Source: an uncultured Pseudomonadota bacterium
GTDB lineage: Bacteria > Pseudomonadota > Gammaproteobacteria > Methylococcales > Methylomonadaceae
Reading direction: 5' to 3'
NCBI GenBank assembly: GCA_903870545.1
Contig: CAIQDI010000004.1
Coordinates: 27,848-91,847 of the forward strand
Length of the DNA: 64,000 nucleotides
Below the pieces are notes generated by a model that saw nothing but the letters and a program-made list of their open reading frames with translations, was not told the DNA's origin and did no database searches. Both the position numbers and the translations under genes were made by a program. Position 1 is the first letter of the stretch, and each line of letters starts with the position of its first letter. Shown piece after piece: positions 2,374 through 53,906 of the stretch.

Positions 2374-2600
2374 AAGTGAAATTAAATCGAAATTAAGAAA
2401 ATGATAATTGTACAGGCAATTGCGGTTTTCTCATTTTTTAGACCATGAAAAAACAAAAAGGGCGGATTTGTTATAATTACTCAAAAAACTTTGCCAATTG
2501 AAAAAATTGTCTTCACAATCGTACGACAAATTTTAGGTCAATTGTGACTCTATCAAATAATTGCACATTCTCTTTTCACTAAATTGTTAAAGCCAACATA

Positions 2601-5237
2601 ATGTTAAAGCACATCGTTCAACGCCCATTTTTAATGCACGTCCTCCAAATTCTCGGATTAGCGACCGCCTATTTTATCGCTGGGATATTGGGCGATATGC
2701 TCGTGATTCCACCCAGTTATGCGACAGTTATTTTTCCTTCGTCAGGTATTGCGTTGGCGGCAATTCTATTTTATGGAAACCGCATGGCGTGGGGCGTGTT
2801 GCTCGGTGCATTTTTGCTTGTGGGTATAATGTCTATCATGGCAAGCAACTTGTCTGAAAGTTTACATTCCCTACATATTACGTTAGCGATTGCCTGCGGT
2901 GCAACGCTGCAAGCCCTTGTAGGGGCTTATTTGGTGCGCCGATGGGCGGGAAAACCCGAAATTTTGTCTAATGAAAAAAACATTCTGTTGTTTTTTTTAT
3001 ACGGCGGTTTCGTCAGCGCGTTGGTGAATTCAACGCTTTCCGTTTCGTTGCTGGTTGCCACCGAGCGAATGCCGGCTGAAGCCTTTTTTGTCAATTGGCT
3101 GTCGTGGTGGGGCGGCGATGCGTTGGGTATTATTATTTTTGCGCCGCTGGTTTTGGTCGGGTTATCGCAGGAAAATCCCGTTTGGCAAAATAAAAAATGG
3201 TCGATTACGCTGCCCATTGTCGCCATGTTTTTGCTGACGATTATGGCGGTTTTTTATGAAATAAAAACCAGTAATGCCCGCATAAAAATAGAATTCGACC
3301 AACACGCAAACGCATTAAGCACCCTTATAGAAAGCTCTATTAACAACGATTTGAACGCGCTCAGATCGCTGAATAATTTTTACGAGGCAGCACACTATAT
3401 TGAAGCGGATGAATTTAAAACGTTTGTTTCGCATTCGTTAAAAAATTTTCCACCTATACTGAACATGGGGTTTTCACCGATTATCAAAGCCAGTGAACGC
3501 GAAAAATTTGAAAATAATTTAAAGCGTGAAGGCGTTTCAAATTTTCAAATTACCGAACAAAATCCGGAGTTGAACAACCAATTAGTCCCTGCTGGAAATC
3601 GTCCGGAATATATGCCCATTCGTTATATTGAACCGCTACAATTGAATAAAAATATCCATAATTTCGACATTTATTCGACTGTGTCACGGCGTGAAGCCAT
3701 TGATAAAGCCAGAGATACCGGCGAGCTTTCCATTACAAAAAAAGTGACGTTAGTTTACGAAATGGGCAAATACACCGGCATTGTCGCGTATCTCCCCGTT
3801 TATCAAAATGATTTGCCACACGAAACGGTGGCAGAACGACGTGCCGCTATTTTAGGTTACAACTTTATCGCGTTTCGCACTGTTGAAATGATGGCATTTG
3901 CGCTCAAAAATCAAAATTTAGCGGACTTGGTTTATCGGCTGATTGACGAAAACGCAGCCGTTGACGAGCAAATTCTGTTTACCAGCGACGCACAGGAACC
4001 GCCATTCAAAACGGCACAAGAAATAGAATTGTTGAAAGAATCCCAATCATTCATCGGGCGCACAACATTTGATATTGGTGGGCGAGTGTGGCGGCTTGAA
4101 ATTACGCCAACGCCTAAGTATTTTATCTGGCACCGCTCCACAAACGTTTGGTTGATTTTGTTGGCGGGATTTTCATTAACGCTGATTGTTTCCATTACGG
4201 TACTGATGTCTAGCATTAGTGAATATCAAGTTCGACAGCTGAATGGCAAACGCCTCGAGGAAAAACAAAAGTTAGAGTTTCAAGCGATGAAACTGGCTAT
4301 TTTGGATTCTCAAAATACGGAGAAAGAAAAGCGTGCCAATGAACTTTTGATTGCTAACGAAAAATTTCTTTCTGCTAACCAAGAACTTATTGCGGCGAAT
4401 GAACAGTTGGTATTTCAAAATGAGGAGAAAAAAAAACGGATTGAAGAGCTTGCGCTGTCGTATGAACAAAATATGCTTTTGAATTTCCAATTGAATCACA
4501 TCCAAAAGTTGGAAAGTATCGGGCGAATGACTTCGGGAATTGCTCACGATTTCAATAACATTTTGAGCTGCATTCTCGGTTACAACGAAATGAATCAATA
4601 TGTCAGTGATGATCTGAACAATGAAATTTTAAAAGCGGAACTGGAAAATAACACCAAGCAAATCGATTTAGCCGGCAAACGCGCGGCAGATTTAATTAAC
4701 AAAATGCTGGCGTATTGTCGCCAAGATACGCCCAAAACCAACATAAAGGTTCAACCCACGCAAATCGTCATTGCAGAAGTTTTGGCAATGTTGCGCCCAG
4801 CGTTAACCAGTCGAATCAAATTTGAAACGGTGTTTGAAAGTGACCACATTATTCAAATAGACGCGATAGATTTACACCAAATTCTGACCAATTTAGCCAT
4901 CAATGCGCGAGATGCGATGAAAGAACGCGGTGGAATTATTACGATTTCGTTGAAAAATGTGATGAATATGAAAGCGCATTGTGTCGCGTGTGCCGCTGTT
5001 ATGGAAGGTGATTTTATTGAATTGAGCATGGCGGATAATGGCACTGGAATCGAATCGAAAATTATTAGTCGTCTGTTCGATCCGTTTTTCACCACCAAAC
5101 CACAAGGCGAAGGCACGGGATTAGGCTTATCGGCGGTGAGCGGCATGGTGCATAAATCGGGCGGACATCTTTTGGTCGATTCCAATCAAAGCGAGTTTGA
5201 TCACGGTAGCGCGTTTAAATTATTTTTTCCTATTTGA
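2601..5237 (+). CDS. Membrane sensor histidine kinase (multi-TM MASE1-like N-terminus, CHASE-like periplasmic domain, coiled coil, HisKA + HATPase_c)
   Basis: 878-aa ORF. About 210 aa of TM helices are followed by a CHASE-like region (PEYMPIRYIEP), a closing TM helix (WLILLAGFSLTLIVSITVL) and a coiled coil. Then come the H-box SGIAHDFNNIL and the N/G boxes NLAINARDAM, DNGTGI, GTGLGLS. Confidence 0.85.
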   Translation: MLKHIVQRPFLMHVLQILGLATAYFIAGILGDMLVIPPSYATVIFPSSGIALAAILFYGNRMAWGVLLGAFLLVGIMSIMASNLSESLHSLHITLAIACGATLQALVGAYLVRRWAGKPEILSNEKNILLFFLYGGFVSALVNSTLSVSLLVATERMPAEAFFVNWLSWWGGDALGIIIFAPLVLVGLSQENPVWQNKKWSITLPIVAMFLLTIMAVFYEIKTSNARIKIEFDQHANALSTLIESSINNDLNALRSLNNFYEAAHYIEADEFKTFVSHSLKNFPPILNMGFSPIIKASEREKFENNLKREGVSNFQITEQNPELNNQLVPAGNRPEYMPIRYIEPLQLNKNIHNFDIYSTVSRREAIDKARDTGELSITKKVTLVYEMGKYTGIVAYLPVYQNDLPHETVAERRAAILGYNFIAFRTVEMMAFALKNQNLADLVYRLIDENAAVDEQILFTSDAQEPPFKTAQEIELLKESQSFIGRTTFDIGGRVWRLEITPTPKYFIWHRSTNVWLILLAGFSLTLIVSITVLMSSISEYQVRQLNGKRLEEKQKLEFQAMKLAILDSQNTEKEKRANELLIANEKFLSANQELIAANEQLVFQNEEKKKRIEELALSYEQNMLLNFQLNHIQKLESIGRMTSGIAHDFNNILSCILGYNEMNQYVSDDLNNEILKAELENNTKQIDLAGKRAADLINKMLAYCRQDTPKTNIKVQPTQIVIAEVLAMLRPALTSRIKFETVFESDHIIQIDAIDLHQILTNLAINARDAMKERGGIITISLKNVMNMKAHCVACAAVMEGDFIELSMADNGTGIESKIISRLFDPFFTTKPQGEGTGLGLSAVSGMVHKSGGHLLVDSNQSEFDHGSAFKLFFPI

Positions 5238-6020
5238 CAACGGTTTGAAGGCTTTTTTGTACAAACTGCTGCCTAAAATAAGACAAACTAGAACAAAGCT
5301 CAAAATGGGTAACGCCGAAAGCGGAAGGGTGACGATTGACAAAAAAATCCAGGTCACTAAAAAAATTAAAAAAAGCACTCGAACCATTTGATATGTTTTT
5401 GCTGCGCCAAATCGCACCGCAAAAGTATATTTATTGGCTCGCCGGTCGGTGTTAATTTGGTCGGGTTGATGTGCCAATAACAACGCCACGGCAAGCGAAC
5501 CAAAAGACAGCGAACCCAAAATAATCGCGTTTCCCAGTTCTTGACTGGAGACTAACCAAAGACAACTGAAAACGCCCCCGTAACAAATTGCTGTGACCCA
5601 TTCGCCTGAACGTGAATACGACAACGGTTTTTGCCCTGAATTATACAAATAACCTAAACCCACCAGCGGCAACGCAATCCACACAATCCATAATTTTTCC
5701 AGCCAAACCAACGTCGCTAATCCTAATAATCCGCCGGCAATAAAACTAAACCAACCATGACGAATCGCGACGCTCAAATTTTGATTATGAAAACGAACCC
5801 ACGAATCCCACTTTTCAACATCCGCGCCTAGTTTCCAATCTGCGACATCGTTAAGTAAGTTAATGGCGTGCTGGATTAACACCACCGCAAAAGTCGCCAC
5901 AAATAAAGCCAGTTGCGTTTGACCTTCGGGTTTTGCAAGTAACCACACGCCAATACCTGGCAAAATGGAGATGAGGTAAATGGCAGGATTTAACGCCTGC
6001 CACCCATGCACATTTCGCAT
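5220..6020 (-). CDS. UbiA-family aromatic prenyltransferase (MenA/UbiA-like integral membrane protein)
   Basis: 266-aa polytopic membrane ORF with the Asp-rich motif NLLNDVADWKLGAD typical of UbiA/MenA prenyltransferases. Its start abuts the stop of the upstream diiron protein gene (TAAATG). Confidence 0.75.
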   Translation of the reverse strand: MRNVHGWQALNPAIYLISILPGIGVWLLAKPEGQTQLALFVATFAVVLIQHAINLLNDVADWKLGADVEKWDSWVRFHNQNLSVAIRHGWFSFIAGGLLGLATLVWLEKLWIVWIALPLVGLGYLYNSGQKPLSYSRSGEWVTAICYGGVFSCLWLVSSQELGNAIILGSLSFGSLAVALLLAHQPDQINTDRRANKYTFAVRFGAAKTYQMVRVLFLIFLVTWIFLSIVTLPLSALPILSFVLVCLILGSSLYKKAFKPLSNRKK

Positions 6021-17674: not shown

Positions 17675-17714
17675 TTCAACTCCAAGATAAACAATAACGG
17701 CGGTAATCCTACAC

Positions 17715-17753
17715 AAAAAAGCCCCGACGGCGTGATGCAATCGGGGCTTTTTG
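17715..17753. terminator. Bidirectional rho-independent terminator-like hairpin
   Basis: AAAAAAGCCCCGA-N13-TCGGGGCTTTTTG: an 8-bp GC-rich stem flanked by an A-run and a T-run. Confidence 0.5.
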
Positions 17754-17816
17754 TTTACGCAGCAATTTATCGAATTGATAATTTGCGTTTGTTGCCGATA
17801 AACTGTTTCATAACAA

Positions 17817-20012: not shown

Positions 20013-21671
<1,659 letters not shown>

Positions 21672-45405: not shown

Positions 45406-45696
45406 TTAGTCTTTTGTCCAATCTTGCAAAATGGTAATCATACTTTTCGCTTGATCAACGCTCGAAATGTTGAATTTCGATTTTTGCTGATAATTGCCAT
45501 CGCGTTTTTGATAACGGCGAATGGTAAATTTATCCGCGCTGTATTCGCCTTTTGCCGCGCTCCATTCTTGATAACGATACATAATCGTTGCCCACGCGCC
45601 TTTCGTCAGCACTTTTTTATCAAGTTCTTTAACGGTTTCGATGCCATCTTCTTCGTATTTGATGGTTAAATCATCTACGGTTGAGGTTTCTGCCAT
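45406..45696 (-). CDS. Hypothetical protein (96 aa) downstream of purA
   Basis: Open frame 13 nt after the purA stop on the same strand, followed by the terminator at 45342-45377. I recognise no motif. Confidence 0.5.
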   Translation of the reverse strand: MAETSTVDDLTIKYEEDGIETVKELDKKVLTKGAWATIMYRYQEWSAAKGEYSADKFTIRRYQKRDGNYQQKSKFNISSVDQAKSMITILQDWTKD

Positions 45697-45709: not shown

Positions 45710-47017
<1,308 letters not shown>

Positions 47018-47051
47018 TTAGATTTAAAATTTGTATGTTTTGATTTTGTTT

Positions 47052-47381
47052 TTAATAGACTAATTGCTCAAGTGAAATACCTAAAGCCTCTGTCGCTTTT
47101 TGACGCATTTTTTTTGATGGACGTTTCATGGTTTCTAGTTTCGTATATTCCACTAACGTAATCCCCATTTGTTGTGCAATTTCAGTTTGAGTATGTCTTA
47201 GATATTCGCGCCACGCTTGCAACATCGTTGAACCACCAACCACTAAACTCACAACTTCATGCGGCACATACCCTTCTTTTATCGTCGGACGGGGTTGAAA
47301 AAAATCATCGTAAGGAATCACGACAAAAGTTGGTTTGCCATTGTTGCCTAAAATAGTTTGATAATTAGTAAGTGTGTTCAT
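47052..47381 (-). CDS. higA: HigA-like antitoxin (HTH-XRE C-terminal domain)
   Basis: About 109 aa, with the HTH segment HTQTEIAQQMGITLVEYTKLE. It overlaps the upstream RelE-fold toxin gene. The toxin-first order is the HigBA arrangement. Confidence 0.7.
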   Translation of the reverse strand: MNTLTNYQTILGNNGKPTFVVIPYDDFFQPRPTIKEGYVPHEVVSLVVGGSTMLQAWREYLRHTQTEIAQQMGITLVEYTKLETMKRPSKKMRQKATEALGISLEQLVY

Positions 47382-47622
47382 CACGTTTTTTCACCTCTTC
47401 AATTTTAATAATTCTGATTTCACCATCGAATTCAAAAAATACACGATAATTACCAACACGCAAACGGTAGCTATATTTGTGGTCGGTCAATTTTTTAACG
47501 CTAAGACAATCAGGAAATACAGGCAATTTGTTTTCGACATTATCACGAATTGTTATTTGTGCTGATTTGTCTAGCTTCATCAATTGTCGAGTAGCTCTTA
47601 ATTTCCAAATAATTCGATTCAT
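47365..47622 (-). CDS. higB: RelE/ParE-superfamily toxin (HigB-like position)
   Basis: 85-aa ORF with YRLRVGNYRVFFEFDGEIRIIKIEEVKKRDE, the typical RelE/ParE C-terminal sheet. Its start overlaps the stop of the upstream 222-aa gene by 1 nt. Confidence 0.8.
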   Translation of the reverse strand: MNRIIWKLRATRQLMKLDKSAQITIRDNVENKLPVFPDCLSVKKLTDHKYSYRLRVGNYRVFFEFDGEIRIIKIEEVKKRDEHTY

Positions 47623-48290
47623 TATTTCTCAAAACCAACCAATTTCTCACTTGAGCTTTCCAGCAACGCCGTCGTTTCCACCGACAACCCAATCAACTGA
47701 AATTGCTCAAGGTGTCTTTGAATGAAATTCTGTCCGCTCGTCGTGATTAAATTGATGTCTTTGCTAATAAGTTGCATATCGTCATTCAATTGCACAATAA
47801 AGCGCGTTGCGTTATCAATAATTCCCGCTAATTTTTTATCAACTGCGTTAATCATGATATTTCGGCTCGCTTCACTCATATTCGGATTTCCTTCAATCCG
47901 TTCAAGTTGGTCTTGCGCTTGTTGCAACGCTCTATCTTGCAATTCGTTATACCGTTCCGTTTTTTCGTGAATCAAATCGTAGGCTTTTCGTTGCAATTCA
48001 ATTCGCATTGAACCAATTGCCTGAACCGCTTCAACGTTAATTCGGGTTAATTCGATTTGATACGCCATCATCGAATCAGAAACGGCTTTCATTCGTTCAA
48101 ATTCTTTATCTTTTTTGAGCTGCTCAATTTCTGTGATGATTCGGACAATTTCAGTTTCACGGGTCATGTGCCTTTCAAGTTCTCGGTCTTTAGCGGCTTC
48201 TTGACGCTTATGCTCCGAACGTTTAGACCCATTACTTAATAATCCACCACCCGCCGATAAAATACTGCCTAGTCCACCAAAAAATCCCAT
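47622..48290 (-). CDS. Hypothetical protein C (222 aa): Gly-zipper-like N-terminus + long coiled coil
   Basis: A long ORF in AT-rich DNA. The N-terminus is MGFFGGLGSILSAGGGLL, followed by a charged heptad-rich region. It starts 3 nt after gene B. Confidence 0.6.
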   Translation of the reverse strand: MGFFGGLGSILSAGGGLLSNGSKRSEHKRQEAAKDRELERHMTRETEIVRIITEIEQLKKDKEFERMKAVSDSMMAYQIELTRINVEAVQAIGSMRIELQRKAYDLIHEKTERYNELQDRALQQAQDQLERIEGNPNMSEASRNIMINAVDKKLAGIIDNATRFIVQLNDDMQLISKDINLITTSGQNFIQRHLEQFQLIGLSVETTALLESSSEKLVGFEK

Positions 48291-48293
48291 GAT

Positions 48294-48773
48294 TTATATT
48301 TCCATCTCGCTTAATTTTTTAATTTCTCGGTCGAATATCACGCGATTCTTGTCTAACGTAATTTCTAACGTATTTCGCATCAACTCGGATTTTTCGCCCG
48401 CTTTAATAAAATGATTCAAAGCCGTTTCCATGTCTTTAACTAACGAAATCCCCAAATTTAATTGTCCCGCATGGTCTGTTTTTATAATCGACCATTTGCC
48501 CAACAATTTAAGAAAAACCGTCGCAAAAATCGCTTCGGTTTCTTTTTGTTTATCAGTGAAAAACGTTGCTTCGTGACTAAACAATTGCCAATGACTGCTC
48601 AACCACGTCATAAAGTATTTTTCACGCGCCAAATTCAACAACGCAGGACTGTCTTCATATTTAAAAGACGGCGCGTAAATCTCAGGTTTATGGTCTAAAA
48701 AATCTTGCACCATTTCAGCCCTGCCTTGTTTTAACACTTGCAACGCGGCAAATGTTTCTTTTTTATTCAGCAT
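48294..48773 (-). CDS. Hypothetical protein B (159 aa)
   Basis: ATG at 48773 overlaps the end of gene A by 11 nt. I recognise no motif. Confidence 0.6.
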   Translation of the reverse strand: MLNKKETFAALQVLKQGRAEMVQDFLDHKPEIYAPSFKYEDSPALLNLAREKYFMTWLSSHWQLFSHEATFFTDKQKETEAIFATVFLKLLGKWSIIKTDHAGQLNLGISLVKDMETALNHFIKAGEKSELMRNTLEITLDKNRVIFDREIKKLSEMEI

Positions 48774-49332
48774 CAACTACTTTTGAAGAATTTGCACCGA
48801 TGTCATCCAGTTTCGCTTTTGAAACTTCTTGTTTGGCTTCTTCTTTGAAAATCCCCAACACTTGAACAACGTGTGTTTTCGCCAAATCACTACTCAAATC
48901 GATGCTTTTTGTGTAGCTTGCAACCAATTCTTCAATCCATTGAGAAGCCACTTTTTTATCAATTTCTTGAGCTTGCAACGTTTGCACAACTTCGCGCAAA
49001 GTTTGGGTGAAAAATTGCGAACGTTCACGGCGCAAATCTTCCTGCAAAGAAGATGCGAATTTGATTTCTTCTTTGTAGTCCTTAATCAATTCGAGATAGT
49101 GTTTTTCATATTGATAAAGTAAATCAAGTTTCGATTTTGTTTCAGATAATTGGTCTGGTATTACATTTATTTTTTGTAATCGTGAAACATAACCTAACAA
49201 ACTGGTTTGTGATTCATCAGTCAACGAACTATCCATATTCGCTACTGTCATCGTTTTTCTGACCTCGGTGAGCAATTCTTCTGGTGATATACCTAAAATC
49301 GTTGCAAATTCTTTTACTGTTCTAACTGCCAT
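48763..49332 (-). CDS. Hypothetical protein A (189 aa): short N-terminal helix-turn-helix/IF2_N-like motif + coiled coil
   Basis: The product begins MAVRTVKEFATILGISPEELLTEV, and the rest is a charged helical region. Its RBS and start are part of a 34-bp repeat shared with the antitoxin gene at 49837. Confidence 0.6.
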   Translation of the reverse strand: MAVRTVKEFATILGISPEELLTEVRKTMTVANMDSSLTDESQTSLLGYVSRLQKINVIPDQLSETKSKLDLLYQYEKHYLELIKDYKEEIKFASSLQEDLRRERSQFFTQTLREVVQTLQAQEIDKKVASQWIEELVASYTKSIDLSSDLAKTHVVQVLGIFKEEAKQEVSKAKLDDIGANSSKVVDAE

Positions 49333-49363
49333 TTTATTTTCCTTTTGTTTTTAAATTGATTTG
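49330..49363. repeat. 34-bp direct repeat, copy 1 (CATTTTATTTTCCTTTTGTTTTTAAATTGATTTG)
   Basis: Identical to 49835-49868. It covers the start codon and RBS of gene A and the last codons of the RelE gene. Confidence 0.9.
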
Positions 49364-49623
49364 TAAATCTTTGAACGATGCCCAATTTCAACCACCAAAA
49401 TCGTTATTTCGTTGTCGATGATTTTGCAAATCAGACGATAATCACCGACTTTGTAACGCCAATAAGTATTTAACTCACCTTGCAAAACGTCACCTTTTTC
49501 GCGTGGATTTTCTAACTTCGGCAACGTTTCATTTATAAACTTTAAAATTCTGTTGCGAACTGTTTTATCAAGTTTTGCTAAAGTTTTGATTGCGTCTTTG
49601 GTGTAATCAACCGACCAATTCAT
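49351..49623 (-). CDS. RelE/ParE-family toxin
   Basis: About 90 aa: MNWSVDYTKDAIKTLAKLDKTVRNRILKFI ... WRYKVGDYRLICKIIDNEITILVVEIGHRSKIY. It overlaps the antitoxin gene. Confidence 0.85.
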   Translation of the reverse strand: MNWSVDYTKDAIKTLAKLDKTVRNRILKFINETLPKLENPREKGDVLQGELNTYWRYKVGDYRLICKIIDNEITILVVEIGHRSKIYKSI

Positions 49624-49837
49624 CAAGCATCCTCATTGCTTCAGCTTGTGATAACGTTTTTTCTTCGCCACTCAACAATTTTGCCATTGCCGCATCAGCC
49701 GCCTTGATGTCTTCGCGGTCTTCCAATTCTTTGATAAAACTTTGCATTGCCTGTTCTAAAACACTTTCTGGCGCGATGTGTTCAAGTTGAGCAATGTGCA
49801 TCACTTGTTGTTCAACGTGTAATGGTAAAGTCATCAT
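49607..49837 (-). CDS. Antitoxin of the RelE/ParE module (RelB/StbD/ParD-like)
   Basis: 76-aa acidic helical protein directly upstream of the toxin gene and overlapping it. Confidence 0.65.
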   Translation of the reverse strand: MMTLPLHVEQQVMHIAQLEHIAPESVLEQAMQSFIKELEDREDIKAADAAMAKLLSGEEKTLSQAEAMRMLDELVG

Positions 49838-49868
49838 TTTATTTTCCTTTTGTTTTTAAATTGATTTG
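49835..49868. repeat. 34-bp direct repeat, copy 2
   Basis: Identical to 49330-49363. It covers the start codon and RBS of the antitoxin gene and the intergenic DNA after the DUF2442 gene. Confidence 0.9.
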
Positions 49869-49872
49869 ATAT

Positions 49873-50151
49873 TTACGCACATAATTTTAAATCGTGAAAA
49901 TGCTCTAATTCGTTGTGATACAAGTCCGCAATTGGAAAGCATAAATCATAATCACCCCAAATCAATTCACCGTATTCAAGACGAAATGTTGAAAATTTTT
50001 CTAAATTTAACCATTCACGAATATCAGGATGGCGTGAACGTGACAAAAACGGTTTGAAGTTAATCACTTGTTCGCTTTCGTCGTCAAATTGGAGAAAAAT
50101 TTGGTAATCGCCAATTTGTTTCGCCGTTGTGATGTTGATAACGTCAGGCAT
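49873..50151 (-). CDS. DUF2442 domain protein
   Basis: 92-aa ORF with ITTAKQIGDYQIFLQFDDESEQVINFKPFL, the DUF2442 pattern as I recall it. It is paired with a DUF4160 gene. Confidence 0.75.
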   Translation of the reverse strand: MPDVINITTAKQIGDYQIFLQFDDESEQVINFKPFLSRSRHPDIREWLNLEKFSTFRLEYGELIWGDYDLCFPIADLYHNELEHFHDLKLCA

Positions 50152-50456
50152 TATTTCAACCTCCGAGTGATATTTTCAGCAGTAACGTGTTTGTGCAATA
50201 CGAAAAAATCAATCCATTTTTGAACGATTTCATCTGTTTTAGCCGTCACAATTTCTTTGAAATAACGCATTTCATTCGGCTGTAACGGTTGTCGTCCTGT
50301 TACATCTACGAAGTTAATTTCAATCACGTTACCTTCAACAATAATAAATTCAGCTCGCGCTTCACGTCCTTGGCTTTTACCGTGAACATGAATCGGTTCA
50401 TGTTCGTTAGCGTAAAACATGACAATTAAGCCGAAATACTCATAAAGTTTTGGCAT
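50151..50456 (-). CDS. DUF4160 domain protein
   Basis: 101-aa ORF starting MPKLYEYFGLIVMFYANEHEPIHVHGK, the DUF4160 signature. It starts 5 nt after the hisZ stop. Confidence 0.75.
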   Translation of the reverse strand: MPKLYEYFGLIVMFYANEHEPIHVHGKSQGREARAEFIIVEGNVIEINFVDVTGRQPLQPNEMRYFKEIVTAKTDEIVQKWIDFFVLHKHVTAENITRRLK

Positions 50457-50461
50457 GATGT

Positions 50462-51691
50462 TTATTTCAAAATTGATTCAACAACCCAAACATCATTCAA
50501 ATTTTTCACCAAAACCGCTGTGCAATTTAACTCAATCGCGCCACCGATTTGATTCGGTAATTGTTGCACCACAGCACGATTTTGAGCGCGGCAATCACGA
50601 ATCGTTTCACACAAATTCACATCGTCAACATACGGCGCAAAAATCAATTCGCGTTCGGGTTGTTCAATGCCATTTTGTTTATTGAGAGCCGTTAAAACTT
50701 TCAAATCGGCACTGAAACCTGTTGCGGGACGTTCACGTCCGAAAATTGCACCGATATTGTCATAACGTCCGCCGCGTGCGATTTCTTTACCGATTGATGG
50801 CACAAATGCCGCAAACACAATCCCCGTGTGATAGTGATAACCGCGCAATTCGGCTAAATCAAAACTGATTGAAAGCGACGGAAAATAACGCGCCAACGCG
50901 GTTGAAATTGCATCTAAATCGTCTAACGCTTTTTGAGTATTTTCAGATTTAAATAATTCGCGGGCTTTTGCCAAAACGGTTTTATCGCCGTTCAATTCAG
51001 GCAGTTTTAACAACGCGATTTTTAAATCATTCGGCAAATTATAACTTTCGAGTAGCTCTTTTAATTCGGGACGCGCTTTGCGTTGCAAAACGTCGAATAA
51101 TTTACTTTCTTGAGCGCGTGTTAAAGCGGCTTCTTCTGCCAATGCGCGATAAATGCCAACGTGACCCAAATCTAAATGCACATTCAAAACGCCTGACATT
51201 GCCAACATTTCAAGCATCAAACGAATCACTTCTAAATCGCTTTCTTTGCCCGCGTGACCATAAAGTTCTGCGCCAATTTGCATTGGTGAACGTGACTTTT
51301 CCAGCGCATCGCCGCGCGTGTGCAAAATCGTTCCGACATAACACAAGCGCGTTGGATGGTCGTGTTTTAAATTATGAGCATCAATTCGCGCCACTTGCGG
51401 AGTCATATCGGCTCGCACACCGAGCATTTTGCCGCTGATTTGGTCGGTTAATTTAAAGGTTTGCGAATCTAAATTGTGTCCCGAACCGGTCAACAATGAA
51501 TCTAAAAAATCGATAAATGGCGGCACAACCAACTGATAACCCCAGTTCGCAAAGGTTTCGAGCAATTTTGCGCGAAGAATTTCCAAACGTTGTGCTTCGT
51601 CAGGAAGCATTTCATCTATGCCGTCAGGTAATAACCACGCATCCGAAATGACTTCATGATTATGCGGCAGGTTAAAAAATTTGTTTTGCAT
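50462..51691 (-). CDS. hisZ: ATP phosphoribosyltransferase regulatory subunit HisZ
   Basis: 409-aa HisRS-like paralogue without an anticodon domain, containing LPDGIDEMLPDEAQ, RADMTPQVAR and GGRYD. It sits downstream of hflKC. Confidence 0.9.
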   Translation of the reverse strand: MQNKFFNLPHNHEVISDAWLLPDGIDEMLPDEAQRLEILRAKLLETFANWGYQLVVPPFIDFLDSLLTGSGHNLDSQTFKLTDQISGKMLGVRADMTPQVARIDAHNLKHDHPTRLCYVGTILHTRGDALEKSRSPMQIGAELYGHAGKESDLEVIRLMLEMLAMSGVLNVHLDLGHVGIYRALAEEAALTRAQESKLFDVLQRKARPELKELLESYNLPNDLKIALLKLPELNGDKTVLAKARELFKSENTQKALDDLDAISTALARYFPSLSISFDLAELRGYHYHTGIVFAAFVPSIGKEIARGGRYDNIGAIFGRERPATGFSADLKVLTALNKQNGIEQPERELIFAPYVDDVNLCETIRDCRAQNRAVVQQLPNQIGGAIELNCTAVLVKNLNDVWVVESILK

Positions 51692-51762: not shown

Positions 51763-52617
51763 TTATTTCCGATTTTTAAAATACTGAAAAAAATCAGAAT
51801 TCGGTTCTAATACTAGCGTACTCGAACTGGTGAAAGTCTTTTTATACGCATTCAAACTGCGGTAAAACGTGAAAAATTCACTGTCTTGATTATAGGCTTT
51901 CGCATAAATATCCGCCGCTGTTGCATCGCCTTCACCGCGTAATTTTTCAGCGTCCCGATACGCATTTGCCAACGTGACAACACGTTGTCTATCGGCATCG
52001 GCGCGAATACGTTCGGCGGCTTCAGCACCTTCGGAACGGAATTCTCGCGCGGTTCGTTCACGTTCGGCTTCCATTCGGCGAAATACGGAACTGCTGACTT
52101 CTTCGGGCAAATCGATTCGCATCACTTGCACGTCAACAATTTCCATTCCTAACGCCGCCGCTGGAGCTTTCGCATTTTTAATCAATAATTCGCGAATTTC
52201 ACCGCGATCGGTCGAAACCAATTGTTTGATATTCCGTTTGCCGAATTCACTGCGAAATAAATCTTTCACGATTTGGTCTAAACGCAAATTTGCTTGATCC
52301 GTATCGCCCGCGACCACGGTATAAAACGTTTTCACGTTGCCAATTTTCCATTTTACAAACGAATCTACGATGACATTTTTCTTTTCAGCCGTCAAAAAAC
52401 GTTCGGGCTTGGAATCCATGGTTTGAATTCGCGCATCGAAATGTTTGATGTTGTTAATCATCGGCAATTTAACGTGCAAACCCGCCGTGTAATCGTCTTT
52501 CACGATTTCACCGAGTTGGAATTTAATGGCTTTTTCGCCTTCGCTGACCGTGAAAACGCTCATCATGCCGACTAAAAATACGCCTGCTGCGCCGAGTACG
52601 ATTTGATTTGTGTTCAT
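51763..52617 (-). CDS. hflC: Protease modulator HflC
   Basis: 284-aa SPFH/band-7 protein with an N-terminal TM helix, immediately after hflK. Confidence 0.93.
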   Translation of the reverse strand: MNTNQIVLGAAGVFLVGMMSVFTVSEGEKAIKFQLGEIVKDDYTAGLHVKLPMINNIKHFDARIQTMDSKPERFLTAEKKNVIVDSFVKWKIGNVKTFYTVVAGDTDQANLRLDQIVKDLFRSEFGKRNIKQLVSTDRGEIRELLIKNAKAPAAALGMEIVDVQVMRIDLPEEVSSSVFRRMEAERERTAREFRSEGAEAAERIRADADRQRVVTLANAYRDAEKLRGEGDATAADIYAKAYNQDSEFFTFYRSLNAYKKTFTSSSTLVLEPNSDFFQYFKNRK

Positions 52618-52618
52618 A

Positions 52619-53854
52619 TTAACGTCCTCTCATGTCGGTTTGGCGAACGCGATTATTGGGATGTTCAACGCTGGGAATAATCGGCGCATTTTGGGAAATA
52701 ACCGGTTGTTCAACGTTGGTGTACGCGATAGGCGCAGGCGTTGTCGCAACAGGCGCATTGATGGGATTTTGTGGATTTTGCATCAATTTATCGAGCGGTA
52801 AATACATCACGTTGCTGCCATTTTTCACATCGACAATCACATTATTGGTATTGCTCAACACGGATTCCATCGTTTCAATGTACAACCGTTTGCGCGTGAC
52901 ATCAGGAGCTTTGGTGTATTCCGTCAGCAATTGCGAGAAACGACTGGTTTCACCTTGCGCCTGCGCTAAAACTTGTTCTTTGTAACCTTCGGCTTCCTGC
53001 ATTTTACGCGCCGCCGCACCACGCGCTTTTGGAATAACATCATTCGCGTAAGCCTGCGCTTCATTGATTAAACGTTGTTCATCTTCTCGCGCTTTAATCG
53101 CATCGGCAAACGCATTTTGAACTTGTTCAGGCGGCTGCGCGTCTTGTAAATTCACGCTGGTCACTTGCACACCGGAATTATAACTGTCCATCACTTGTTG
53201 AATTTCGGTTTTAATTTGCGCGACAATTTCGCCACGTCCTTCAGTCAAAACATAATCCATCGTGCTGCCACCGACCACGCCGCGTTGTGCGCTTTCGGTA
53301 ACGTGTTTTAAGGTTGCGGCGGGGTTGGCGACGTTGAAAATAAAGGCTTTTGCGTCTTTGACTTGATATTGAACCGCTAAACGCACATCCACATAATTTT
53401 CGTCTTTCGTCAGCATTAAGGCTTCTTTTGGAACGGAACCGCCGGCTAAATCGCTGCTACCATTGCTACGATAACCGACTTCGATAAAACGTTGTTGTTT
53501 GACGTTGACAAGCGCGACCGATTCGATAGGTTTAGGGTAGTGCCAATTTAAACCGGCTTGCGTGGTGCCAATGTATTTGCCAAAGCGCGTTTCGACACCG
53601 TGATTTCCCTCGTCCACAATATAAAAACCGCTTAATCCCCAAAGTACGCCAGCTCCAACCGCTAATAAACCCAAGCCTTTGAGCGAATTTCCTGAAAAAC
53701 CGTCGCCATTTTCGCCGTTGCCACCGCCACCAAAAATTTGCTCTAATTTTTTTTGCAATGAACGAATCGCTTCGTCTAATTCAGGCACATCTTTATCGTC
53801 ACCACGACCACTCCATGGATCTTTTTTACCGCCACCGGGTTCATTCCACGACAT
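52619..53854 (-). CDS. hflK: Protease modulator HflK
   Basis: From the ATG at 53854 the product begins MSWNEPGGGKKDPW, the typical HflK N-terminus. It has an SPFH domain and a Pro/Ala-rich tail. Confidence 0.93.
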   Translation of the reverse strand: MSWNEPGGGKKDPWSGRGDDKDVPELDEAIRSLQKKLEQIFGGGGNGENGDGFSGNSLKGLGLLAVGAGVLWGLSGFYIVDEGNHGVETRFGKYIGTTQAGLNWHYPKPIESVALVNVKQQRFIEVGYRSNGSSDLAGGSVPKEALMLTKDENYVDVRLAVQYQVKDAKAFIFNVANPAATLKHVTESAQRGVVGGSTMDYVLTEGRGEIVAQIKTEIQQVMDSYNSGVQVTSVNLQDAQPPEQVQNAFADAIKAREDEQRLINEAQAYANDVIPKARGAAARKMQEAEGYKEQVLAQAQGETSRFSQLLTEYTKAPDVTRKRLYIETMESVLSNTNNVIVDVKNGSNVMYLPLDKLMQNPQNPINAPVATTPAPIAYTNVEQPVISQNAPIIPSVEHPNNRVRQTDMRGR

Positions 53855-53906
53855 ATTTGCTCCGTTTTTGTTATTCATAATCAAGTTTTTCACCGTCTAA
53901 AGCACG

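What the first reader, a model, noticed from the sequence alone, without database searches (positions are those of the whole stretch)
47052..50456. 3.4-kb toxin-antitoxin/unknown-gene insertion splitting the conserved hisZ-purA junction
hflK-hflC-hisZ-purA is a conserved gammaproteobacterial cluster, for example in Pseudomonas. Here eleven small genes, all on the same strand, lie between hisZ and purA:

- DUF4160 and DUF2442
- an antitoxin and a RelE/ParE toxin
- three unknown genes
- a HigB-like toxin and a HigA-like antitoxin

The first gene starts only 5 nt after the hisZ stop, and the last ends 49 nt before purA. The DNA is visibly AT-richer than the flanks, and no integrase or transposase is present. 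The insertion is transcriptionally in line with two essential biosynthetic genes. That could stabilise it, or make purA expression depend on read-through.
Basis: partly seen in the sequence, partly recalled or inferred. Interest (0 to 1): 0.6.

Follow-up and report, generated by a model that had tools for sequence, protein, structure and literature searches.

The report
Shuffling toxin-antitoxin cassettes between hisZ and purA
Nine small genes (three toxin-antitoxin pairs plus an unknown three-gene unit) lie between two biosynthetic genes that are otherwise direct neighbours, at a spot where related bacteria swap small gene cassettes, at least one of which went in by copying a 34-base junction and with no integrase in sight.

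Summary
A 3,459-bp stretch lies between hisZ and purA. It has 36.9% GC against 43.3% for the genome, and all its genes are on the minus strand. The gaps at its ends are 5 nt and 49 nt.

It is not one insertion. In 117 of 120 other genomes of the order, hisZ and purA lie 15-337 nt apart. Only this genus of freshwater methanotrophs fills the gap, in 16 of 25 genomes. The fillings are mosaics:
- DUF4160/DUF2442 (DhiTA-like), RelBE, a ParE-like/HTH pair, MqsRA and HicBA-like pairs
- an Eco47II-type restriction-modification pair
- a conserved trio of unknown function

Three near-identical genomes carry different alleles inside flanks that are 99-100% identical. All nine genes are under purifying selection.

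A perfect 34-nt direct repeat brackets RelBE, and genomes without RelBE keep one copy. Copies of the hisZ 3' end follow the DhiTA cassettes. There is no integrase, tRNA gene or attC site. The closest precedents are core-gene-flanked defence hotspots and the "insertion with long target duplication" described for restriction-modification genes.

Earlier notes of this scan describe similar cassettes on other DNA.

The parts
50462..51691 (-). hisZ (regulatory subunit of ATP phosphoribosyltransferase), the upstream anchor. Its last codons (ESILK*) contain the core sequence AATCAATTT.
   Evidence: Pfam tRNA-synt_His, 2.1e-120. The 3' ends of all congeners are compared.
50151..50456 (-). g1: DUF4160 protein of 101 aa, a DhiT-like putative toxin. 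Its ATG lies 5 nt after the hisZ stop.
   Evidence: PF13711, 42.6 bits against a cut-off of 23. dN/dS 0.07-0.17. DhiTA precedent: PMC8198452 and PMC12065111.
49873..50151 (-). g2: DUF2442 protein of 92 aa, a DhiA-like putative antitoxin. It overlaps g1 by 1 nt.
   Evidence: PF10387, 23.2 bits against a cut-off of 23.9. dN/dS 0.03-0.10.
49835..49868 (-). Junction repeat, copy 1: CAAATCAATTTAAAAACAAAAGGAAAATAAAATG. It holds the core shared with the hisZ 3' end, a ribosome-binding site and an ATG.
   Evidence: Perfect 34-nt direct repeat with spacing of 505 nt. None expected in shuffles. Only two copies in the whole genome.
49607..49837 (-). g3: RelB-like antitoxin of 76 aa. It starts ATGATG, and the first ATG belongs to the repeat.
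   Evidence: NF048017, 1.1e-5, below its cut-off. phrog_4085, 6.3e-8. dN/dS 0-0.06.
49351..49626 (-). g4: RelE/StbE-family toxin of 90-91 aa. Its last four codons and stop lie inside repeat copy 2.
   Evidence: PF05016, 60.7 bits. TIGR02385, 47.8 bits against 27.9. PHROG RelE-like, 3.5e-26.
49330..49363 (-). Junction repeat, copy 2, identical to copy 1. It supplies the RelE stop and the ribosome-binding site and ATG of g5.
   Evidence: Genomes without RelBE have a single copy at this junction.
48763..49332 (-). g5: 189 aa, first gene of the unknown trio. About 130 C-terminal residues are conserved; the N-terminal part varies between genomes.
   Evidence: Only weak Pfam hits (IF2_N, 4.5e-5, below cut-off). 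The N-terminus is non-homologous among near-identical genomes. dN/dS 0.03-0.17.
48294..48776 (-). g6: 160 aa, second gene of the trio, an all-helical protein.
   Evidence: 51 homologue clusters, those named being Methylococcaceae/Methylococcales MAGs. AlphaFold2 model with pLDDT 79.8. No PDB match by fold or sequence.
47622..48290 (-). g7: 222 aa, third gene of the trio. Gly-rich hydrophobic N-terminus followed by a long helical hairpin.
   Evidence: 134 homologue clusters. Model pLDDT 72.5 with helices 21-134 and 140-201. Best fold hits are Vipp1/PspA but not significant, E 0.2-0.3.
47365..47622 (-). g8: ParE/RelE-superfamily toxin of 85 aa, placed toxin-first as in HigB. It overlaps g7 by 1 nt.
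   Evidence: PF05016, 27.6 bits against 23. PHROG RelE-like, 1.2e-16.
47052..47384 (-). g9: HTH_3 (Xre-type) protein of 109-110 aa, a HigA-like putative antitoxin and repressor.
   Evidence: PF01381, 25.9 bits against 23. phrog_7241 transcriptional regulator, 2.2e-19.
47003..47051 (-). Spacer of 49 nt before purA. The 16 nt next to purA (AAAACTTGGAATCATT) are conserved in the genus with small variations, including at empty sites. The distal part looks like a decayed copy of the junction motif (TTAAAAACAAAATCAAAA).
   Evidence: Repeat family D2.
45710..47002 (-). purA (adenylosuccinate synthase), the downstream anchor.
   Evidence: NF002223, 656 bits.

Best explanation
The hisZ-purA junction of this methanotroph genus is a hypervariable hotspot without an integrase. 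Small, independent, mostly selfish or defensive gene cassettes accumulate there and are shuffled.

**Content in this genome.** The array has four modules:
- a DhiTA-like DUF4160/DUF2442 pair
- a RelBE pair
- a conserved three-gene unit of unknown function (g5-g6-g7)
- a toxin-first ParE-like/HTH pair

All are co-oriented with hflK-hflC-hisZ-purA and packed with overlapping or near-touching stop and start codons.

**How cassettes enter (part shown, part inferred).** It is shown that cassettes sit at or within a few bases of the stop codon of the upstream gene, and that a short stretch of the target is duplicated. The duplication is 34 nt around RelBE, including the ribosome-binding site and ATG of the next gene. 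It is 11-18 nt of the hisZ 3' end after the DhiTA cassettes. As a result, the insert and the downstream gene both keep their translation signals. The agent that does this is unknown and only inferred.

**How the array changes afterwards.** Homologous recombination between strains exchanges modules and alleles, using hisZ, purA, shared modules and the junction repeats as homology. Illegitimate deletions trim the array.

**Inferred function.** The TA pairs act as addiction or abortive-infection modules. The array is transcribed with the host operon, so purA is fed by read-through and/or by TA-internal promoters.
For: **Shown: the site.**
- hisZ and purA matches are 15-337 nt apart in 117 of 120 other genomes from 41 genera of the order.
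- Within the genus the gap ranges from 18 nt to 3,757 nt, and 16 of 25 genomes carry cargo.
- The purA-proximal 16 nt are conserved in empty and filled sites, with small variations.

**Shown: mosaic content and turnover.**
- Congeners carry DhiTA (two types), RelBE, the trio, MqsRA, a HicBA-like pair and an Eco47II endonuclease with a C5 methyltransferase.
- Sister genomes on a hisZ+purA tree differ in content.
- G000, G013 and GCA_037140555.1 have flanks that are 99-100% identical. Inside the island, identity switches between about 100%, 91-93% and 45-64% at module boundaries.
- Relics of deletions exist. The tail of g7 is fused to a methyltransferase in G004, and it follows hisZ directly in G012.

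**Shown: the modules are independent and functional.**
- The DhiTA+trio cassette also sits between leuD and leuB in G006 and G012.
- The trio occurs after ligA, between glyA and the formate-tetrahydrofolate ligase gene, between aroE and aroA in a Desulfamplus MAG, and on its own.
- dN/dS is 0.03-0.18 for all nine genes.

**Shown: insertion signature.**
- A perfect 34-nt repeat brackets RelBE. It has no other copy in the genome.
- Genomes lacking RelBE have one copy at the same junction.
- GTTGAA(A)TCAATTTAA, which is the native hisZ end, recurs after the DhiTA-a and DhiTA-b cassettes.
- Four of 12 DUF4160/DUF2442 pairs in this genome have flanking repeats beyond shuffled controls.
- A second array, on contig C22, has a 19-nt junction three times, and G014 shows the empty allele there.

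**Shown: no mobile-element machinery.** No integron integrase, no attC-like hairpin, no tRNA gene and no Rfam match.

**Precedents.** Core defence hotspots (PMC10250203). R-M insertion with long target duplication (PMC2853133).
Against: - Shared modules are about as diverged between species (87-97% nt) as the flanking core genes (85-92%). Much of the pattern could therefore come from old residence plus differential loss, rather than frequent gain.
- Most genomes are MAGs, and many break contigs at this locus. Some architectures are incomplete, and strain mixtures could mislead.
- The hisZ+purA tree may itself be distorted by recombination at the locus.
- The short A-rich junction motifs, apart from the perfect 34-mer and the 19-mer, are of low complexity. 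The 18-nt hisZ-end repeat around DhiTA reaches only p = 0.03.
- A RelE paralogue elsewhere also ends in YKSN*. Part of the 34-nt repeat may therefore be native RelE sequence used as microhomology, not a duplicated target.
- PADLOC recognises none of the nine proteins as a defence protein, apart from a generic HTH.
- Transcription, toxicity and the insertion mechanism are all untested.
Confidence: 0.7

Rival explanations
1. One recent horizontal insertion of a ready-made 3.4-kb island.
For: Low GC of 36.9% against 43.3% for the genome. hisZ and purA are adjacent everywhere outside the genus. The genes are tightly packed and co-oriented.
Against: Subsets of the same modules, about as diverged as the core genes, occupy the site in many congeners. 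Modules occur independently of each other and at other loci. Near-identical genomes differ module by module. Internal junction repeats point to serial events.
Confidence: 0.07
2. An old array inherited vertically from the genus ancestor, diversified only by differential loss and point mutation, with no continuing gain or exchange.
For: Module divergence tracks core divergence. All genes are under purifying selection. Relics of precise deletions exist.
Against: - Sister genomes carry unrelated cargo: MqsRA, HicBA-like, R-M and a second DhiTA type.
- Within flanks that are 99-100% identical, alleles differ by 36-55%.
- The cassette sits at a second locus, leuD-leuB, in two species.
- The 34-nt duplication is matched by single-copy empty junctions.
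- The deeper clade of the genus and all other genera lack cargo.
Confidence: 0.15
3. A degenerate integron cassette array (CALIN-like) whose cassettes were placed by an integron integrase acting at attC sites.
For: The cassettes are co-oriented, apparently promoterless and rich in TA pairs, with repeated junctions. The hisZ end contains GTTGAAT, which fits the GTTRRRY core. Earlier notes of this scan found DUF4160/DUF2442 pairs as integron cassettes in other genomes.
Against: No integron integrase in the genome: the best TIGR02249 hit is 84 bits against a cut-off of 265, as expected for Xer-like recombinases. The junctions are 5-35 nt and do not fold, with z-scores of +0.8 to +1.5. The junction sequence is unique to this locus.
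Confidence: 0.03
4. The nine genes form one integrated multi-gene defence system, not independent modules.
For: Translational chaining throughout. The same nine-gene order is kept in three near-conspecific genomes.
Against: Every module is found without the others: DhiTA alone in G021 and G004, RelBE without DhiTA in G014, the trio alone in L080 and L082, and the ParE/HTH pair replaced by MqsRA in G014.
Confidence: 0.04

Closest known systems
Core defence hotspots flanked by conserved core genes (cDHS1 and cDHS2 of Pseudomonas aeruginosa; Johnson et al. 2023, PMC10250203)
   Same: A fixed chromosomal site bounded by core genes. Its content of defence or addiction systems varies between close relatives, and many genes there have unknown function.
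   Different: This site is much smaller, 0-3.8 kb against medians of 6-26 kb. It lies inside an operon between two genes that are otherwise 18-24 nt apart. All cargo is co-oriented and translationally chained. The cargo is mostly TA pairs. Cassette junctions carry short target duplications.
Insertion with long target duplication of restriction-modification gene complexes (Furuta, Abe and Kobayashi 2010, PMC2853133)
   Same: Small selfish gene units inserted with no transposase or integrase, flanked by a direct repeat of more than 30 bp that is present once in the empty allele. The repeat can overlap the 3' end of the upstream gene.
   Different: The inserted unit here is a RelBE TA pair, and with shorter or imperfect repeats DUF4160/DUF2442 pairs, not R-M genes. 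The duplicated target includes the ribosome-binding site and start codon of the next gene. Several such cassettes are stacked in one array.
DhiTA, the DUF4160/DUF2442 type II TA system of Dickeya dadantii 3937 (PMC8198452; discussed in PMC12065111)
   Same: g1 and g2 have the same domain pair, the same gene order and overlapping genes.
   Different: Toxicity and neutralisation are untested here. g2 scores just under the Pfam cut-off. Here the pair has no evident promoter or ribosome-binding site of its own and starts 5 nt after hisZ.
Chromosomal integron cassette arrays rich in TA cassettes (Vibrio superintegrons, CALINs)
   Same: Stacked, co-oriented, promoterless cassettes, many of them TA pairs, separated by a repeated junction.
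   Different: No IntI and no structured attC. The junctions are 19-34 nt, specific to each locus, and contain the ribosome-binding site and start codon.
E. coli relA-mazEF-mazG (established knowledge, not tested here)
   Same: A type II TA pair sitting co-oriented directly downstream of a housekeeping gene and co-transcribed with its neighbours.
   Different: That is a single, fixed pair, not a hypervariable multi-cassette array.

Membership tests
RelBE type II toxin-antitoxin (g3/g4) | Toxin belongs to the RelE/ParE fold family | tested here: met
   PF05016, 60.7 bits (cut-off 23). TIGR02385 RelE_StbE, 47.8 bits (cut-off 27.9)..
RelBE type II toxin-antitoxin (g3/g4) | Small upstream antitoxin of the RelB family overlapping the toxin gene | tested here: inconclusive
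   Position and the 17-20 nt overlap fit. NF048017 gives 25.5 bits, below its cut-off of 50.
RelBE type II toxin-antitoxin (g3/g4) | Toxin arrests growth and the antitoxin neutralises it | not testable with these tools
   Needs expression in a laboratory strain.
DhiTA (DUF4160/DUF2442) TA (g1/g2) | DUF4160 protein followed directly by a DUF2442 protein | tested here: met
   PF13711, 42.6 bits (cut-off 23). PF10387, 23.2 bits (cut-off 23.9, marginal). 1-nt overlap..
DhiTA (DUF4160/DUF2442) TA (g1/g2) | Demonstrated toxicity and antidote activity | not testable with these tools
   Known only for the Dickeya pair (PMC8198452).
HigBA type II TA (g8/g9) | Toxin gene upstream of an Xre-type HTH antitoxin | tested here: met
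   g8 precedes g9 with a 17-20 nt overlap. g9 hits HTH_3 with 25.9 bits (cut-off 23)..
HigBA type II TA (g8/g9) | Toxin matches a HigB-specific family model | tested here: not met
   Only the general ParE_toxin model hits (27.6 bits), plus a RelE-like PHROG. No HigB model and no NCBIfam model matched. The accurate description is 'HigBA-like arrangement, RelE/ParE-superfamily toxin'.
Core-gene-flanked defence hotspot | Same flanking core genes, variable cargo among relatives | tested here: met
Core-gene-flanked defence hotspot | Cargo consists of recognised anti-phage systems | tested here: inconclusive
   Congeners carry an Eco47II R-M pair and TA pairs. PADLOC recognises none of the nine proteins of this genome except a generic HTH.
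Integron cassette array | Integron integrase present, or attC sites at cassette boundaries | tested here: not met
   Best TIGR02249 hit is 84 bits against a cut-off of 265. The junctions do not fold.
Insertion with long target duplication (criteria of PMC2853133) | Direct repeat longer than 30 bp flanks the insert and is single-copy in a genome without the insert | tested here: met
   Perfect 34-nt repeat around RelBE. One copy at the same junction in G006 (contig C65), with slightly diverged copies in G011 and G005.
Insertion with long target duplication (criteria of PMC2853133) | No other mobility gene in or beside the insert | tested here: met
Insertion with long target duplication (criteria of PMC2853133) | Inserted genes are a restriction and a modification gene | tested here: not met
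   The insert is a RelB/RelE pair. This is therefore the same mode of insertion with a different cargo class.
PspA/Vipp1/ESCRT-III (g7) | Significant fold or sequence match to the helical-hairpin core | tested here: inconclusive
   The top Foldseek hits are Vipp1/PspA, but with E 0.2-0.3 and TM 0.27-0.31. There is no sequence match.

The most novel reading that the evidence does not exclude
Small TA cassettes (DUF4160/DUF2442 pairs and RelBE) are promoterless mobile units that work without an integrase. They insert at the stop-start junction behind a host gene and duplicate 19-42 nt that include the ribosome-binding site and start codon of the next gene. This builds cassette arrays inside essential operons. 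It would extend to TA systems the 'long target duplication' mode known for R-M genes, possibly driven by the toxin's own nuclease activity or by short-homology capture of circular or transformed DNA. The g5-g6-g7 trio, with its swappable N-terminal domain and PspA-like hairpin protein, would be an undescribed conflict system riding in the same arrays.
Probability: 0.2. Interest if true: 0.75.

Novelty: new variant of a known kind. Interest (0 to 1): 0.55.

Why it matters
Most described defence or TA hotspots are large, lie between operons and show traces of mobile elements. This one is a few kilobases at most and lies inside an operon, between two biosynthetic genes that are 18-24 nt apart when the site is empty. 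It turns over even between genomes whose flanks are 99-100% identical.

The junction duplications give a concrete, testable signature for how TA cassettes without an integrase enter genomes. They also explain how such cassettes can sit inside an operon without breaking it, because the ribosome-binding site and start codon of the downstream gene are copied.

The locus also shows that expression of an essential gene (purA) may come to depend on selfish cargo. Finally, it marks a conserved, fast-diversifying three-gene unit as a candidate new conflict system in freshwater methanotrophs.

Tried and rejected
- **Promoter and terminator scan.** Promoter-like sites occur at chance frequency. Two weak ones lie on the coding strand, at 50179-50150 and 47650-47621. 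There is no terminator on the coding strand inside the island. This is suggestive only.
- **Rfam and tRNA scan.** Nothing found.
- **Integron model.** Rejected: no IntI and no attC-like folding.
- **Genome-wide recombination site.** Rejected: the 34-nt junction and its parts occur only at this locus.
- **Function of the trio.**
  - Pfam, NCBIfam, PADLOC and PHROGs gave nothing usable.
  - PDB profile searches were empty or gave only coiled-coil noise.
  - The g6 model (pLDDT 80) has no fold match.
  - The g7 model gives only non-significant Vipp1/PspA hits.
  - No known domain was found in the variable N-termini of g5 homologues.
- **Short inverted repeats as TA operators.** Nothing convincing upstream of g3 or g8.
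- **Literature.** A search for hisZ, purA and 'genomic island' together found no paper.
- **G000 against G013 over 20-kb flanks.** Identity is 94-97% on average. This neither proves nor excludes a recent sweep of the whole locus.
- **Not used.** The third homologous-protein search, the deep representative search, and the viral, metagenome and genome contig scans. They were not needed for the questions asked.

Full report
**1. What is in the sequence**

All genes of the region are on the minus strand of the window:

| Gene | Coordinates | Size |
|---|---|---|
| hflK | 52619-53893 | |
| hflC | 51763-52617 | |
| hisZ | 50462-51691 | |
| g1 | 50151-50456 | 101 aa |
| g2 | 49873-50151 | 92 aa |
| g3 | 49607-49837 | 76 aa |
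| g4 | 49351-49626 | 91 aa |
| g5 | 48763-49332 | 189 aa |
| g6 | 48294-48776 | 160 aa |
| g7 | 47622-48290 | 222 aa |
| g8 | 47365-47622 | 85 aa |
| g9 | 47052-47384 | 110 aa |
| purA | 45710-47002 | |

The count of eleven genes is not: there are nine. The internal spacings are -1, +35, -20, +18, -14, +3, -1 and -20 nt, so there is no room for more.

Family searches gave the following:
- g1 is DUF4160 and g2 is DUF2442 (marginal score).
- g3 is a weak RelB-like antitoxin and g4 is a RelE/StbE toxin.
- g5, g6 and g7 match nothing usable.
- g8 is a ParE/RelE-superfamily toxin and g9 is an Xre-type HTH protein.

A DUF4160/DUF2442 pair is the DhiTA toxin-antitoxin system of Dickeya dadantii (PMC8198452; PMC12065111). 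PADLOC recognises none of the nine proteins except a generic HTH.

The 3,459-bp interval has 36.9% GC against 43.3% for the genome. Only 1.1% of equal-sized genome windows are as low. Codon usage is only mildly atypical.

Searches show no integrase or transposase among the nine genes. There is also no tRNA gene, no Rfam match and no terminator-like site on the coding strand. All nine genes show dN/dS of 0.03-0.18 against orthologues, so they are real genes under selection.

**2. The site in relatives**

The genome is 2.68 Mb in 39 contigs. Close homologues in public data are labelled Methylococcaceae or Methylococcales MAGs.

Outside the genus I sampled 120 genomes from 41 genera of the order. 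In 117 of them the hisZ and purA matches lie on one contig, 15-337 nt apart. Two genomes lack a hisZ match and one splits the genes over two contigs.

Inside the genus (25 genomes) the gap varies widely:

| Gap | Genomes |
|---|---|
| 18-24 nt | four genomes |
| 116-153 nt, no genes | five genomes |
| 390 nt | G008 |
| 579 nt | G006 |
| 1,246 nt | G018 |
| 1,466 nt | G021 |
| 1,550 nt | G015 |
| 2,392 nt | G005 |
| 2,606 nt | G004 |
| 2,997 nt | G019 |
| 3,284 nt | G014 |
| 3,459 nt | G000 (this genome) |
| 3,757 nt | G013 |

Five further genomes have cargo next to hisZ, but their contigs break inside the locus.

The 16 nt before purA (AAAACTTGGAATCATT) are conserved, with small variations, in empty and filled sites alike. 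Insertions therefore fall between the hisZ stop and this leader. In the empty state the two genes are operon-tight.

**3. Mosaic content and turnover**

The cargo is modular:

| Genome | Cargo at the site |
|---|---|
| G021 | DhiTA, a 126-aa ORF and a HicB-like gene |
| G004 | DhiTA and an Eco47II-type restriction-modification (R-M) pair |
| G019 | DhiTA, RelBE and the R-M pair |
| G014 | RelBE, the trio and MqsRA (MqsR 122 bits, MqsA 188 bits) |
| G005 | DhiTA and the trio |
| G015, G020, G010 | a second type of DUF4160/DUF2442 pair |
| G015 | also a HicBA-like pair |

On a hisZ+purA tree, sister genomes differ. G001 is empty while G005 holds 2.4 kb. G023 is empty while G020 is full. G006 and G015 carry different cargo.

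The clearest evidence comes from three near-identical genomes: G000, G013 and the MAG GCA_037140555.1. Their hisZ and purA are 99-100% identical in nucleotides. Inside the island:
- g1 is identical between G000 and the MAG but 93% to G013.
- g2 is identical between the MAG and G013 but 91-93% to G000.
- RelBE is about 100% in all three.
- The g5 N-terminal region is non-homologous in all three.
- The g6 C-terminus through g7 is 54-64% between G000 and the MAG, while it is 94-100% between G000 and G013 apart from a g7 N-terminal indel.

This is allelic replacement by recombination at module boundaries.

Relics of illegitimate deletion also exist. The G004 methyltransferase is fused in frame to the last residues of g7. 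In G012 the tail of g7 follows hisZ directly.

Shared modules are about as diverged between species (87-97% nt) as the core flanks. The modules are therefore long-term residents of the genus gene pool, not fresh imports from far away.

**4. The modules are independent and move**

The DhiTA+trio cassette (89-93% nt identity) sits between leuD and leuB in G006 and G012, again co-oriented and tightly packed. G000 has an empty leuD-leuB junction.

The trio is a conserved three-gene unit with about 134 (g7) and 51 (g6) homologue clusters. The few that carry a source name are Methylococcaceae or Methylococcales MAGs, plus one Desulfamplus MAG. It occurs in several contexts:
- after ligA
- between glyA and the formate-tetrahydrofolate ligase gene
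- between aroE and aroA in the Desulfamplus MAG
- on its own

Its first protein keeps a C-terminal domain of about 130 aa and swaps N-terminal parts. g6 folds as a helical bundle with no known relative. g7 is a long helical hairpin behind a glycine-rich hydrophobic N-terminus, and its best fold hits, which are not significant, are Vipp1/PspA. Its function remains unknown. A conflict or defence role is inferred only from its context and its pattern of diversification.

**5. Insertion signature**

A perfect 34-nt direct repeat, CAAATCAATTTAAAAACAAAAGGAAAATAAAATG on the coding strand, lies at 49835-49868 and 49330-49363. It brackets RelBE exactly, giving a 505-bp unit. It occurs nowhere else in the genome.

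Genomes that have DhiTA and the trio but lack RelBE carry the sequence once at the DUF2442-to-g5 junction. The copy is exact in G006 (contig C65) and slightly diverged in G011 and G005. G004 relates to G019 in the same way.

The repeat contains the ribosome-binding site and ATG of g5. RelB begins ATGATG, where the first ATG is the duplicated one. The last four codons of RelE and its stop lie in the second copy.

The core of the repeat, AATCAATTTAA, is the native 3' end of hisZ (…ESI*) in the genus. Copies of GTTGAA(A)TCAATTTAA follow both DhiTA cassette types in G019, G004 and G010. In those genomes hisZ itself has acquired a substitute ending (ESILK* or ESL*). The native leuD end in G000 (…GTTTCAATTTAAAAAA) shares 12 nt with this junction, and the cassette in G006 and G012 sits in the last codons of leuD.

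In this genome, 4 of 12 DUF4160/DUF2442 pairs have flanking direct repeats beyond shuffled controls: 19 nt perfect, 36 nt and 42 nt imperfect, and 18 nt at hisZ.

In the 19-nt case, on contig C22, the junction TTTTGAAAAGGGAGAATGA occurs three times, each time just before an ATGATG or GTGATG start. G014 lacks the DhiTA cassette there and has one copy at that junction.

An integron explanation fails. There is no integron integrase and no attC-like fold. The pattern matches the 'insertion with long target duplication' described for restriction-modification genes: a repeat longer than 30 bp, present once in the empty allele, no mobility genes, and sometimes overlapping the 3' end of the upstream gene (PMC2853133). 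Here the cargo is a TA pair.

What produces the duplication is unknown. Capture of circular or transformed DNA by short homology, or homology-facilitated illegitimate recombination, are plausible inferences.

**6. How it most likely works**

Shown:
- The site is a genus-specific, integrase-free hotspot of independent cassettes, shuffled by recombination.
- At least RelBE entered or leaves by a 34-nt duplication.

Inferred:
- The three TA pairs act as addiction or abortive-infection modules.
- The array is transcribed with hflKC-hisZ-purA. The evidence is the tight spacing, the translational overlaps, the absence of a predicted terminator and the operon-tight empty sites.
- purA is therefore fed by read-through and/or by TA-internal promoters.
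- Placement between two biosynthetic genes protects the cargo from large deletions.

**7. Wider pattern**

The genome is rich in TA genes, with 16 DUF4160 and 17 ParE/RelE matches in 2.68 Mb. About two thirds of its DUF4160/DUF2442 pairs are wedged, co-oriented, within 0-60 nt of larger neighbouring genes.

Earlier notes of this scan describe related cases on other DNA:
- a DUF4160/DUF2442 pair between two copies of a gene's 3' end in Bacteroidota
- TA-bearing selfish DNA at junctions of a paa operon
- TA islets with stranded integron cassettes

**8. Verdict**

The 'single insertion' reading is replaced by a hypervariable cassette hotspot inside an operon.

In kind it belongs with core-gene-flanked defence or TA hotspots. 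It is a new variant in four respects: its position inside an operon, its small scale, the stacking of promoterless cassettes, and the target-duplication junctions that had so far been described for R-M genes. Interest is moderate. The mechanism of insertion and the function of the trio are the open and testable parts.

Noticed in passing
G000 contig C22, about 35.27-36.23 kb (locus L083:1279-2228); outside the window: A second cassette array. The 19-nt junction TTTTGAAAAGGGAGAATGA occurs three times, each directly before an ATGATG or GTGATG start. The copies separate a Zn-ribbon ORF, a DUF4160/DUF2442 pair, an antitoxin-like cassette and a 171-aa ORF. G014 (contig C84) lacks the DUF4160/DUF2442 cassette and has one junction copy at that point, with different cargo further on.
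   Followed up: partly
G000 contig C22, about 21.2 kb (DUF4160 hit at 21215-21400); outside the window: A DUF4160/DUF2442 pair lies, with overlapping stops and starts (-4, +5, -8 nt), between a 593-aa ORF carrying an N6-adenine methyltransferase NPPY motif and a 430-aa ORF. Together these look like the two halves of one large methyltransferase or type IIG-like enzyme. This may be a TA cassette splitting a gene.
   Followed up: no
G000 contig C18:112475-112669; outside the window: A DUF4160 domain lies inside an open frame of about 711-714 aa instead of a small stand-alone protein. This recalls the DUF4160 effector domains reported for Menshen NsnC-like proteins (PMC12065111).
   Followed up: no
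G006 contig C65 (L015:2100-4663, reverse-oriented copy) and G012 contig C259 (L033): The same cassette (DUF4160, DUF2442, g5, g6, g7) sits between leuD and leuB. leuD loses its last four codons to the insertion. The hisZ-purA site of G006 holds only a 153-aa ORF.
   Followed up: yes
G020 contigs C118 and C155; G012 contigs C49 and C22 (L031, L042, L032, L043): In two congeners, a hydrogenase maturation protease-like gene follows the array on the hisZ side, and a [NiFe]-hydrogenase large-subunit-like gene lies directly upstream of purA. A larger hydrogenase cluster may occupy the same site, but the contigs break inside it.
   Followed up: no
G004 contig C52 (L029), methyltransferase of 386 aa: The C5 cytosine methyltransferase of the Eco47II-type R-M pair is fused in frame to the last 40 or so residues of g7. 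This is a relic of replacement of the trio by the R-M pair.
   Followed up: partly
L076 (GCA_037140555.1) 4701-5529, compared with L077:419-1228: In the conspecific MAG the g5 homologue is called as 137 aa, with about 410 uncalled nt upstream. A metagenome contig has an intact 269-aa version with a different N-terminal domain. The MAG may have a frameshift or a miscalled gene.
   Followed up: no
G002 contig C28:5073-6360: purA matches in two pieces (residues 1-183 and 199-429) in a genome with an empty hisZ-purA site. This could be a frameshift or an assembly error.
   Followed up: no
window 2595-5242 and 17700-17760: The first stretch has many diverged copies (64-82% identity) scattered over G013 contigs, which suggests a multi-copy gene family. 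The second is a 40-50-nt element with many near-identical copies in G013, possibly a REP- or MITE-like repeat.
   Followed up: no
window 45406-45696 (minus strand): A 96-aa ORF directly downstream of purA is conserved at the same position in related contigs (L076, L077, L079). It has no Pfam hit on record.
   Followed up: no
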